A stretch of 63,416 nt of DNA, filler included, from Chlamydiia bacterium (GTDB taxonomy: Bacteria; Chlamydiota; Chlamydiia; Chlamydiales; FEN-1388): the NCBI GenBank assembly GCA_903848235.1. It is 7 parts of 7 records of this genome, joined end to end, with 100 filler letters (N's around TTAATTAATTAA, not from the genome) between each part and the next. Parts side by side here need not be neighbours in the genome. Positions count along the whole stretch, not along the records: positions 32,347 to 51,225 come from CAINFV010000152.1; 6 more parts are not named here. One strand, given 5' to 3'. Made by a program: the position numbers and the translations under genes. The first letter of the stretch is position 1. Each line of letters opens with the position of its first letter. Below the pieces are notes generated by a model, which did no database searches, had not been told where the DNA came from, and was given only the letters and a program-made list of their open reading frames with translations. Below are positions 37,548 to 45,632 of the stretch, in pieces.

Positions 37548-39131
37548 TCAACAAAGAGCGCTCGCCTGCAGCCTCGATGAGAGCGTTGACACACGCTCCT
37601 CTTTTCGAATAACAGCACCAACAACATCAGTTTTCTGCCCGATGACTACCAACCGTCTTTTGGCACGTGTGATGGCAGTATATAGAAGCCGGCGGTCGAG
37701 AAGAGCCCCTGGAGGAATGACGACAACAACCGTTTCAAACTCCCCGCCCTGGCTTTTATGCACGGTCATCGCAAAAGCCCTCTCCATCATTGGCACAAGG
37801 ACAGTTGGCACCGTGCAATGGTGAAAATGGATCTGGTCTTGAGGAAAACTCCTTTCAAGAATACCAATATCACCGTTCATCACCCCCAGATGGTAGCTAT
37901 TTTTTGTGCTTACAACGGGGGTATATTCCTTCTGCCATCCCATACGACTATTGACACTATCAGTCCCCCAATAGCCCTTTCTGCATGAAGTCAGCAGCGC
38001 TGCCTTGCGAAGAAGCGCCGTAGCAGCATTCAACGACAGTTTTCCACGCCATGGTGCCATGACATCTCGCTCTACAACCTTCTCCGCACGCTGCCAGTCA
38101 GCGTCCGTCATACATTCGACAAATGTCACATCACCCGTACTTCTTCCAAGCATCATCTCAAACCCCTGGCCGTCGCCGCGCCGCACAGCATCCGCCAACT
38201 CCAACAGCTCGTTGGACGTCGTCCGCTGGCACCCCTGAAGGGAAAAATGACGTATCACACCCCGTTGCGCAGCTTTTAGCAGTTCAAAGAAGGGCTGCCC
38301 AGGGTCTATCGACGGCAGCTGGTCAGCATCGCCTAGCATCACCACGCGCGTGCCGCTATGCAAACGCAGCATGAGCTTGAGCATCAGCTCGCTTCCAATC
38401 ATAGACCCCTCGTCGACAATCACCACATGATACGGCAGAAACGTCCCGCTCTGCTGCGACACAAGGCTATGGATAGTCTTCGCCTCTAGAACAACCTCAT
38501 CGCCGCTCATCTTTTTGATGCCGGCGAACAGCGTCTGCACAGCACGTCCTGTAGGGGCTACTACAGCAACACGTAATGGCCGCACAGAAGAGGCCCTTGC
38601 CAAGGCACGAAGGTAGGCGCTTGCAGTATAGGTCTTCCCAGTCCCAGGGCCTCCTGTCACCAAGCACATAGCAGCAGCACCAGCACCTACCACCGCCGCC
38701 TGCTGCCCTGCATTAAGCTCGTCTCCTACCATTAGCCTATTTACCTTCACAAATGGCTCTGCCATACTCAGCCGTGCCACCTCTCTAGCAAGACTCACCT
38801 CTACAGCATGAGCGCGAGGAAGAGCTGCCACCTCGCCTTCACTTACTAGCCGCCCAGGACACTCTGTCATCTGCCGCTTGAGGCTCTTCTCAATAGAAGC
38901 TGCCATGGCATCATCTATGACGTTTATCCCATCATCAGAAAAGACGCTTTGCACACTTGGCATCACCTCATCGCCGATACGCACCGCCATATGACCTTGA
39001 CGAAACGCCCTCGACACATAGACGCCCAACAAACAGCCGTCCTTCTGCTGTATTTTTTTTCCTAGCATAAGGTCAAAGGCATCAACACACCCCATGCCTC
39101 CCAGCTGCATCAGCAACAGGTCATCCCCCAT
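37548..39131 (-). CDS. recD: Exodeoxyribonuclease V alpha subunit
   Basis: GGPGTGKT, APTGRA, VDEGSM, GDADQLPS, TVHKSQG and YTAITRAK motifs; GGAGGT RBS before ATG 39131. Confidence 0.93.
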   Translation of the reverse strand: MGDDLLLMQLGGMGCVDAFDLMLGKKIQQKDGCLLGVYVSRAFRQGHMAVRIGDEVMPSVQSVFSDDGINVIDDAMAASIEKSLKRQMTECPGRLVSEGEVAALPRAHAVEVSLAREVARLSMAEPFVKVNRLMVGDELNAGQQAAVVGAGAAAMCLVTGGPGTGKTYTASAYLRALARASSVRPLRVAVVAPTGRAVQTLFAGIKKMSGDEVVLEAKTIHSLVSQQSGTFLPYHVVIVDEGSMIGSELMLKLMLRLHSGTRVVMLGDADQLPSIDPGQPFFELLKAAQRGVIRHFSLQGCQRTTSNELLELADAVRRGDGQGFEMMLGRSTGDVTFVECMTDADWQRAEKVVERDVMAPWRGKLSLNAATALLRKAALLTSCRKGYWGTDSVNSRMGWQKEYTPVVSTKNSYHLGVMNGDIGILERSFPQDQIHFHHCTVPTVLVPMMERAFAMTVHKSQGGEFETVVVVIPPGALLDRRLLYTAITRAKRRLVVIGQKTDVVGAVIRKEERVSTLSSRLQASALC

Positions 39132-39156
39132 CACCGCACCTCCAACGCCACCCCCT

Positions 39157-45500: not shown

Positions 45501-45632
45501 GACACACGCTTTGAGAAGCGATGGTGACGTCGATGTGCGAATGTCTTCTATCAATACCTCTAGCAGCTGCCCGAGGTCATTGCTCATAATCGCTTCTGGC
45601 AGAGGGACCACAACAAACTCCGGTTGCTTCAT
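42588..45632 (-). CDS. recC: Exodeoxyribonuclease V gamma subunit (divergent)
   Basis: FLFGFSSL, LSPCMLFWGD, IEIH..PTPLREVE and YQAAIEQV motifs; ATGA-coupled to recB. Confidence 0.85.
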   Translation of the reverse strand: MKQPEFVVVPLPEAIMSNDLGQLLEVLIEDIRTSTSPSLLKACVIVPDGALRAWLSHELAKKGISLFRIQLLILEEALEQQPSDTPILSRHHLMPLLMAFFDHLQKTGAWPSRTSDSTESEYHMARRMRLPYAVRAFLGERSWFLKDPIAERLWQQFEAWCPLRIPSVHKPSLSSSQTPLFLFGFSSLNPLLLGQFLSLPALCRLYLLSPCMLFWGDQSSDQEMRFLLTAASNRHVTRPSAEQLEQLLYDRHRLLANSGQVGREFMLLIEEARLQTRSCYVLPEPLVTTPYTDYLLPETFITGKASRTLLDYIKADLLLLVGKRDIPQPLPHDNSIEIHGAPTPLREVEALRERLLACPALPPASVIVLVTDIARYQAAIEQVLGQQIPYQLWGGEQKSGIITACRMLIHLLMSKGTLHDWLQLLRHPVFQKALLMSKEEAEALIEWLATKEICWGLSAAHRHRYLASRAIIPSDIIGKSFEEEKDCLLATLLTTSLDESAEVSLLGAIGSFFQCITAIEDWWQLPLQQSSYAPMSCFATLIDTIVDMLLKGSSGGYEEEALTAATASFTQIAAQTASPQLPASEALHLFYTLVDTHLSRHFLRLSSPIIVAEFGSFQPFPAHLIAILGAHEGALPEHSEEQLLKRLDRMVPKIPASNTFFDRYAFLEVMLAAENIFISYQSYAFDIKETVPYSPIVADLLYHIDTNYTVNAHQPSTLLHVTHPLARPQHQALPSTPPSPALHLEKPLPSSSVTISSLQYAARSPLDLYYKEHYSFSSPRFVEESLFIKPWEIRAHLERDIAAITPSHTHPSYKKAHSSLHATLRAMDITPQPFDLHLLPTMDAPHSTPTALFAPLIPSSPSIIGSWKGLVTQGIILTSEQWQQELFSRWPENAIRTYLVDHHRIPFVSQAILVKECRTIPLPPSPCICDWAAFSALAATTPFPFTFDIIKLLLTHPTPHDVLQAIIAHAEEKRGPWPAFAAFITADTCATLLPQWEHYATLLWSDLFTLLETP

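What the first reader, a model, noticed from the sequence alone, without database searches (positions are those of the whole stretch)
37548..45632. G/C strand skew flips at REP-like sites inside recB and reshapes RecB/RecC composition
Seen (hand counts of selected 60-nt lines, plus strand G/C): 39481 = 11/23, 39841 = 21/10, 40381 = 21/12, 41401 = 11/22, 41941 = 7/23, 42421 = 26/5, 43381 = 30/7. All genes here are on the same strand, yet skew switches sharply from C-rich to G-rich twice, at about 39800 and about 42340. Both points coincide with degenerate GTAG-type hairpins. Proteins follow: Pro/Ser/His/Thr-rich on one side (RecC C-terminus) and Gly/Glu/Val-rich on the other. Inference: the hairpins act or acted as foci of a bidirectional strand-asymmetric mutational process, for example repeated nicking/repair or local replication initiation. 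This may be an undescribed localized mutagenesis footprint.
Basis: partly seen in the sequence, partly recalled or inferred. Interest (0 to 1): 0.8.

Follow-up and report, generated by a model that had tools for sequence, protein, structure and literature searches.

The report
Origin-like mutation footprint centred in recB
In a group of uncultured freshwater chlamydiae, the DNA for about 5 kb on either side of one point inside the recB repair gene has gained G in place of A on opposite strands, like a miniature replication origin, and this has reshaped the repair proteins; the REP-repeat explanation does not hold.

Summary
The skew is real and holds at synonymous sites. It is the strongest C-to-G flip in this genome and in the congener G001, at the same place in recB, and is absent from 17 of 17 scored outgroup recBCD loci. 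At synonymous transition sites it resolves into ONE centre (~42,300, a variable in-frame insertion loop of RecB) with two ~5-kb arms that cross gene and strand boundaries. In each arm the strand running 5'->3' away from the centre has gained G for A; turnover is shown to be faster in the left arm. The 39.7-kb flip is only an amplitude step. RecC (Pro/His/Thr/Ser) and RecB/RecD (Gly/Glu/Val/Asp) follow across an 8-member clade. Not REPs: single-copy, intragenic, GTAG not conserved, and GTAG hairpins genome-wide show no flip. A strong but unrelated hairpin does sit at the centre in both genomes. Not oriC: no DnaA boxes, and chromosome-scale skew does not reverse. Best reading: recurrent local initiation of outward DNA synthesis or unwinding (0.5); the mechanism is inferred. 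The scan noted similar local flips in other genomes.

The parts
42238..42351 (-). Main centre: clade-variable in-frame insertion in RecB (aa ~81-118 counted from the Met at 42,591)
   Evidence: Insertion of unrelated sequence and length in P0001, P0002, P0007 and G001; short or absent in P0003-P0006; absent in 14 of 14 more distant aligned RecBs. Change point 42,264-42,387.
42330..42350 (.). 9-bp GC-rich hairpin, GTAG 3 nt upstream on the + strand; no U-tract
   Evidence: DNA fold -13.3 kcal/mol, z -2.2; single copy. G001 has an unrelated hairpin at the same place, z -4.55, without GTAG.
42370..47300 (+). Right arm: + strand gains G at synonymous purine sites; strong to ~45,100, fading to ~5 kb
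   Evidence: Pooled excess +0.22 to +0.29 (z 8-10.6) for 0-2.75 kb, then +0.14, +0.12, +0.10, and about 0 beyond 5 kb.
36850..42250 (-). Left arm: minus strand gains G at synonymous purine sites
   Evidence: Pooled + strand C excess +0.07 to +0.17 (z 2.0-5.6) over leading-strand expectation out to -5.5 kb. A/G sites are saturated between G000 and G001 (phi 0.014 against 0.21 genome-wide) while C/T sites are normal.
39637..39804 (-). Secondary step: variable helicase-nuclease linker (tether) of RecB, with a hairpin at 39,757-39,791
   Evidence: Total G/C change point 39,578-39,823; third-ranked conserved flip; no sign change at transition sites; hairpin z -2.7, not conserved.
42588..45632 (-). 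recC (1014 aa); C-terminal third rich in Pro/His/Thr/Ser
   Evidence: PF04257; PHTS 0.36 and GEVD 0.12 in aa 700-1014.
39157..42591 (-). recB (1144 aa; the ORF is open from 42,648)
   Evidence: UvrD-helicase and PD-(D/E)XK domains; database protein P0001.
37548..39242 (-). recD ORF (true start probably further in)
   Evidence: AAA_30/UvrD_C_2; G/(G+A) at synonymous sites in the 99.9th percentile of 1,010 genes.
36547..37437 (-). HAD-family hydrolase gene, reached by the left arm
   Evidence: PF00702; G/(G+A) 0.61, 96th percentile.
45774..47279 (+). Protein-kinase gene on the opposite strand, reached by the fading right arm
   Evidence: PF00069; + strand G excess +0.10 to +0.12 pooled.

Best explanation
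A fixed point in the variable loop at RecB aa ~80-120 has, for the life of a chlamydial clade, repeatedly been a site from which DNA is opened and copied outward in both directions for about 5 kb. This is an accessory, DnaA-independent initiation: primed at a hairpin, R-loop or nick, then run back or absorbed by the main fork, which passes right to left here. The strand running 5'->3' away from the centre is then either the exposed lagging-strand template or the newly made strand, and it accumulates A->G, with a weaker C->T component. SHOWN: position, single centre, two arms, strand polarity, A/G-dominated signature, faster A/G turnover in the left arm, conservation in two species and at protein level in a clade, amino-acid drift. 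INFERRED: that DNA synthesis starts there, what primes it, and that the insertions and hairpins are cause or scar of the same events.
For: Top flip in both genomes (z 7.8 among 10,851 positions; z 11.3 among 8,787). Rank 1 of 17 conserved C-to-G flips in ortholog-anchored blocks. 0 of 17 scored outgroup loci (z -3.5 to +1.7). Four-fold sites are near saturation between G000 and G001 (median identity 0.365 in 716 orthologs), so the bias is being maintained. recC on the leading strand is more 'lagging-like' than real lagging genes (G001 two-fold C/T logit +1.0 next to the centre against +0.02 lagging and -0.43 leading). The arms cross a gene boundary with an AT-rich spacer on the left and enter an opposite-strand gene on the right. 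Left-arm A/G sites are saturated (phiR-phiY 95% CI -0.34 to -0.05) and recC has the mirror sign (+0.03 to +0.38). Polarity matches replication-error bias in MMR-deficient E. coli, where A:T>G:C is about 2.4-fold more frequent with A on the lagging-strand template (10.1101/346874, passages). The centre is an insertion hotspot in this clade only. RecG was not found above cut-off in 5 of 5 genomes; that its loss favours unscheduled initiation is recalled knowledge.
Against: No conserved cis-motif, DnaA-box cluster or AT-rich unwinding element at the centre. RecG absence is family-wide, and DnaA (two copies), RNase HII/HIII and MutS are present, so no clade-specific gene loss explains it. In recC the outward-strand A/G sites are not clearly faster (phi 0.17 against 0.20), and four-fold identity is high (0.45, about the 95th percentile). 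The strong part of the right arm ends near the recC start, which also suits a transcription unit. The 39.7-kb step in four-fold G/C is unexplained. DNA was available for only two species; the third copy (C153) is inconclusive. Genes were called by a crude longest-ORF script.
Confidence: 0.5

Rival explanations
1. Divergent internal transcription: a promoter pair in the recB loop drives a sense transcript through recB/recD and an antisense transcript across recC. The non-template strands, possibly held open by R-loops or G-quadruplexes in a feedback loop, gain A->G and C->T.
For: Same polarity as observed. The strong right arm ends near the recC start. G-tract motifs are concentrated on the outward strands, though that follows from composition.
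Against: Coding strands in both genomes are C-rich, not G-rich, at four-fold sites, including groEL, dnaK and fusA homologs. Promoter-like sites are at chance level (9 against 6.8 +/- 2.9). The arms run past a gene spacer and into an opposite-strand gene.
Confidence: 0.17
2. Selection on nucleic acid or protein: C-rich Rho-loading RNA upstream of intragenic attenuation points, outward-facing Chi-like motifs, or amino-acid needs of RecBCD.
For: On the mRNA, C-rich stretches precede both variable loops. High synonymous conservation in recC. The locus is the Chi-reading machine itself.
Against: The shift is spread over all codon families and all three codon positions. No over-represented 5-6-mer in the G-rich strands and no clear polarised Chi-like 5-8-mer in G001. 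Outgroup RecC and RecB do without the shift. Left-arm turnover is faster, not slower.
Confidence: 0.12
3. Recurrent nick or double-strand break at the loop, with 5' resection and outward gap-filling by a lower-fidelity polymerase. The nick could come from a hairpin-directed nuclease or from nascent RecB/RecC acting in cis on their own locus.
For: Newly made strands would run away from the centre. Insertions of unrelated sequence cluster there, with a hairpin in both genomes. Break-centred two-sided mutation hotspots exist in E. coli (PMC3607216, abstract).
Against: G001, with the strongest signal, has no DinB/UmuC and no SbcD hit (98% complete). Deamination of 3' tails and Chi selection around a break would give the opposite polarity (inference). 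It partly overlaps with the best explanation.
Confidence: 0.11
4. REP/TnpA(REP)-type hairpins nicked by a Y1 transposase.
For: GTAG plus a GC-rich stem at 42,323-42,350.
Against: Single copy, intragenic, not conserved, no GTAG at G001 site 1 or at G000 site 2; no flip at GTAG hairpins genome-wide; only fragments of a Y1 transposase in G000 and none in G001.
Confidence: 0.04
5. Relic of an inversion or a mosaic (recC plus 5' recB from a lagging-strand donor), or chance.
For: Local skew inversions usually mark physical inversions (PMC6220195, passages). The sister group has C-shifted RecC.
Against: The breakpoint would lie inside an intact recB. Gene order matches the outgroups. The amplitude exceeds lagging-strand genes. 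RecC, RecB and RecD rank relatives alike. The flip recurs in a species whose synonymous sites are near saturation.
Confidence: 0.06

Closest known systems
Replication-associated strand asymmetry at bacterial oriC (Lobry-type GC skew; lagging-template A>G and C>T bias)
   Same: C-rich to G-rich polarity on both strands; G and T gain on the strand running away from the centre; A>G on the lagging-template-like strand (10.1101/346874, passages).
   Different: Only ~5 kb each side; lies inside a coding sequence; no DnaA-box cluster; the minus strand stays leading on both sides at 20-kb scale in G001; amplitude is about twice the genome's leading-lagging difference.
Pol I mutation footprint downstream of the ColE1 RNA/DNA switch
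   Same: Initiation-anchored mutation footprint fading over kilobases (PMC3167613, abstract).
   Different: That is a plasmid, unidirectional, and seen with an engineered error-prone polymerase; this is chromosomal, two-armed and evolutionary.
DSB-provoked mutation hotspots in E. coli (DinB/RpoS, RecBCD resection)
   Same: Two-sided hotspot strongest within ~2 kb of a fixed point (PMC3607216, abstract).
   Different: Needs DinB, which was not found in G001; no strand-opposed composition reported in the abstract; no break shown here.
REP/BIME elements with TnpA(REP)/RAYT
   Same: One GTAG-preceded GC-rich stem at site 1 in G000.
   Different: Not repeated, not extragenic, not conserved, no intact Y1 transposase found.

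Membership tests
REP/BIME | GTAG (or similar) tetranucleotide directly before an imperfect palindrome (definition recalled) | tested here: inconclusive
   Present at G000 site 1 with a 3-nt gap; absent at G000 site 2 and G001 site 1.
REP/BIME | Many dispersed copies in the genome | tested here: not met
   blastn-short of both regions against G000: best other hits E 1.2 (site 1) and 0.097 (site 2, outside the hairpin); the 17-mer shared with 10 contig ends does not extend.
REP/BIME | Mostly extragenic position | tested here: not met
   Both hairpins are in frame inside recB.
REP/BIME | Cognate Y1/HUH transposase (RAYT) | tested here: not met
   PF01797: three fragments in G000 (open frames 39-45 aa, two at contig ends), none in G001.
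Chromosomal oriC | Replichore-scale skew reversal | tested here: not met
   G001 C2 replication component -0.26, -0.10, -0.11 to the left and -0.13 to the right of the locus (profile).
Chromosomal oriC | DnaA-box cluster and AT-rich unwinding element in a non-coding region | tested here: not met
   One consensus match in 9.5 kb of G000, about 1.6 kb from the centre; none in 9 kb of G001 (recalled consensus). The region is coding and 54-59% GC.
Replication-type strand asymmetry (works like) | Opposite G/C and T/A bias on the two sides at synonymous sites, independent of gene strand | tested here: met
   includes the opposite-strand kinase gene.
Replication-type strand asymmetry (works like) | Forks or nascent strands actually start at the centre | not testable with these tools
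   Only assembled contigs were available.
DinB-dependent break hotspot | Y-family polymerase present | tested here: not met
   PF00817 found in G000 but not in G001 (98% complete).
Transcription-associated asymmetry | Divergent transcripts from the centre | not testable with these tools
   No RNA holder listed; promoter scan at chance level.

The most novel reading that the evidence does not exclude
The recBCD operon of this chlamydial clade carries a long-lived, DnaA-independent, bidirectional initiation site, possibly created in cis by its own nascent RecC/RecB products or by a structure-only hairpin signal. It mutagenizes the operon in a strand-opposed A->G manner and drives RecC and RecB/RecD to opposite amino-acid compositions.
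Probability: 0.2. Interest if true: 0.85.

Novelty: new variant of a known kind. Interest (0 to 1): 0.6.

Why it matters
Local skew inversions in bacteria are normally read as physical inversions or as oriC. Here one sits inside an intact essential repair gene, is kept at the same codon in species whose silent sites are nearly randomized, and visibly pushes protein composition. If local initiation is right, it is a natural fixed accessory origin or repair-synthesis focus that can be located from sequence alone, which makes oriC-independent replication testable in wild genomes. It also warns that RecBCD trees and skew-based inversion calls in this clade are biased.

Tried and rejected
GTAG hairpins as genome-wide foci: no effect in any energy class of 9,658 sites. 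The 170-nt palindromic repeat family of G000 as foci: mean flip -0.03 at 65 internal copies of 159 hits. General excess of C-to-G flips: 52 against 47 at raw level. Other high-ranking flips (10 in G000 and 8 in G001 profiled beside the two recB sites) lack the clean two-armed plateau by eye; the gidA-end flip in G001 (z 6.7) has mainly a left arm. Gene-position effect: metagene skew is nearly flat. Chi-like or other motif: none. Rfam: one weak match far below cut-off, outside the sites. Promoters and terminators: chance level. Assembly chimera: contigs span both sites. No RNA holder listed. Single-protein locus scans found nothing; a viral scan gave one weak hit; plasmid hits were all distant. 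Alignment-based scans returned four outgroup loci and the two already held, so no further clade DNA was obtained. Strain-level protein differences were too few to polarise. The third recB/recD copy (C153) is mildly G-rich but on a leading strand, so inconclusive. Literature: eight searches listed no paper on a local skew centre in recBCD or in chlamydiae; the library lacks most subscription papers.

Full report
Setting. The window is seven contigs joined by N linkers; the finding lies in G000:C152 (window 32,347-51,225). The minus-strand ORFs at 37,548-45,641 are RecD, RecB and RecC. Named distant RecB homologs are Chlamydiae, Parachlamydiales and Simkania, so this is an uncultured chlamydial lineage; holders are freshwater-sediment metagenomes. 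G000 (2.35 Mb, 284 contigs) looks like a mixed bin: C153 carries a second recB end and recD at 57% identity, and a second secA.

Observation. The seven line counts are exact. Change points on all G/C positions are 42,370 (42,264-42,387) and 39,698 (39,578-39,823). The first is the largest C-to-G flip in G000 at 500-nt windows, although C-to-G and G-to-C flips are balanced overall (52 and 47 at 0.35 or more). The signal is present at four-fold sites and survives shuffling of synonymous codons within the operon: 0 of 2000 for site 1 in both genomes; 0 and 5 of 2000 for site 2, uncorrected for site choice. Contigs of run X1 span both sites almost without differences.

Conservation. The congener G001 (RecBCD 59-64% identical) shows the same sawtooth at the same codons, while 17 loci from other genera do not by eye. 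With a residual statistic, G001 gives z 10.3 and 17 scored outgroup loci give -3.5 to +1.7; two more were too short to score and two short loci were not submitted. I held 1.37 Mb of G001's ~1.5 Mb. Four-fold identity between 716 ortholog pairs has a median of 0.365, close to saturation. In ortholog-anchored blocks the two recB sites rank first and third of 17 conserved C-to-G flips; second is a gene I recognise from memory as rpsA. In a genome-wide scan of synonymous transition sites, site 1 is the top peak in both genomes (z 7.8 of 37 peaks above 3; z 11.3 of 20). Genes were called as longest ORFs, which adds noise.

Anatomy. Splitting synonymous sites into A/G and C/T classes shows one centre, not two. 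To its right the + strand has a G excess of +0.22 to +0.29 for 2.75 kb, then +0.14 to +0.10 into the opposite-strand kinase gene, and none beyond 5 kb. To its left the minus strand has a G excess of +0.07 to +0.17 over leading-strand expectation through recB, recD and the HAD gene, to about 5.5 kb. The common rule is G for A on the strand running 5'->3' away from the centre, with a weaker C loss near the centre. At 39.7 kb the index changes size but not sign; that step is carried by four-fold G/C and amino-acid content and remains unexplained. Rate evidence: between G000 and G001, A/G sites in the left arm are fully scrambled (phi 0.014, n=301) while C/T sites are normal (0.21, n=432; genome 0.20-0.21). 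recC shows the mirror contrast (0.375 against 0.17), but there it comes from slow C/T turnover on the outward strand rather than clearly fast A/G. This favours raised A->G mutation on the left and a reversed, boosted strand bias on the right.

Proteins. Eight RecBs (P0001-P0008) form a clade (SH-aLRT 96, quick tree; the careful search did not finish) with GEVD 0.30-0.38 in aa 140-400 against 0.22-0.29 in 14 others. Pairing proteins by equal contig length (an inference), the step in implied G-C between RecC and RecB is 0.31-0.61 in 7 of 7 clade operons, 0.18-0.23 in 4 of 4 sister-group operons, and -0.04 to +0.05 in 6 of 6 outgroups. The 11 closest RecDs are all G-shifted (+0.04 to +0.12) against -0.05 to +0.04 in the other 29. 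The feature may therefore have begun in the common ancestor with the sister group and strengthened in this clade.

The hairpins. Site 1 lies in an in-frame insertion (42,238-42,351) whose sequence and length differ among clade members; it is short or absent in P0003-P0006. G000 has a 9-bp stem after a GTAG (z -2.2). G001 has an unrelated stem without GTAG (z -4.55), and its insertion is interrupted by a short N run, so its length is uncertain. Each is about the strongest hairpin of 37 windows in its operon; of 10 outgroups tested, one (L038) also had its strongest hairpin there, without a flip. So structure may matter, but REP identity fails: no other copies, no flip at the 63 strongest of 9,658 GTAG sites (mean 0.004; 2 of 63 above 0.3, one being this site), and no Y1 transposase in G001. 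Site 2 corresponds by position to the RecB helicase-nuclease tether (PMC6326792, search listing), and its hairpin is not conserved.

Mechanism. The polarity is that of an origin. It is not oriC: the minus strand is leading on both sides in G001, there is no DnaA-box cluster, and the region is coding and GC-rich. An inversion relic (the usual reading; PMC6220195, passages) fails because the break would be inside an intact recB and the bias exceeds true lagging genes. By reasoning, deamination of 3' tails at a break, Chi selection around a break and a stalled one-way fork all predict the opposite polarity. Outward synthesis or unwinding from the centre fits, and agrees with the lagging-template A>G bias of uncorrected replication errors (10.1101/346874, passages) and with kilobase initiation footprints of Pol I (PMC3167613, abstract and outline). 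Break-centred hotspots are known (PMC3607216, abstract and outline), but G001 has no DinB or SbcD hit. DnaA, RNase HII/HIII and MutS are present, and RecG was not found family-wide, so no clade-specific loss explains it. Divergent transcription has the right polarity, but coding strands here are C-rich and could not be tested without RNA. Selection is disfavoured by the spread over all codon families, the lack of a motif and the faster left-arm turnover. I put local initiation at 0.5, transcription 0.17, selection 0.12, nick or break repair including cis-acting RecBC 0.11, relic or chance 0.06, REP nicking 0.04.

Novelty. Eight literature searches listed nothing on such a centre in recBCD; apart from the four papers named as opened I saw listings only, and no supplements were read. 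Unchecked notes of this scan describe similar local flips in archaea, phages and other bacteria and none in relatives of this stretch; they are leads, not support. Verdict: a real, clade-conserved, single-centre mutational footprint, a new variant of strand-asymmetric mutation with unproven cause; interest 0.6.

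Noticed in passing
window 34,810-34,987: About 170-nt long-palindromic (MITE-like) repeat with 159 blastn hits in G000, many at contig ends; no skew flip at its copies.
   Followed up: partly
window 51,326-53,439 and 56,908-59,967 (G000:C153): Second recB 3' end, recD (57% identity) and secA from another member of the same clade; the contig starts just after the tether site. Suggests G000 is a mixed bin.
   Followed up: partly
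P0091 against P0004 (RecB, about aa 230): A ~50-aa in-frame insertion differs between two close members of one 90% cluster, so RecB loops in this clade gain inserts quickly.
   Followed up: no
L044:12,369-14,972 (G001:C1): Second-strongest flip in G001 (z 6.7) at the end of a gidA/mnmG-like gene (name recalled from the N-terminal motif); mainly one-armed.
   Followed up: partly
L037 (G019:C27): An outgroup recBCD operon is strongly C-rich on its coding strand throughout (skew -0.2 to -0.6), without a flip.
   Followed up: no
window 34,981-36,543, 45,774-47,279, 47,316-51,224: recBCD is flanked by a PARG/macro-domain gene, a Ser/Thr-type kinase and a 1,302-aa Ala/Glu/Lys-rich protein without a Pfam hit; the order is kept in G001.
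   Followed up: no
G000 contig ends (C10, C159, C162-C165, C230, C244, C254, C268): A shared repeat end, probably an insertion sequence, at 10 contig ends; its 16/17 match to the recB insertion does not extend.
   Followed up: partly
G000:C168:16,953-17,750 and C31:10,375-10,815: SbcD and a Y-family polymerase are found in G000 but not in G001.
   Followed up: no
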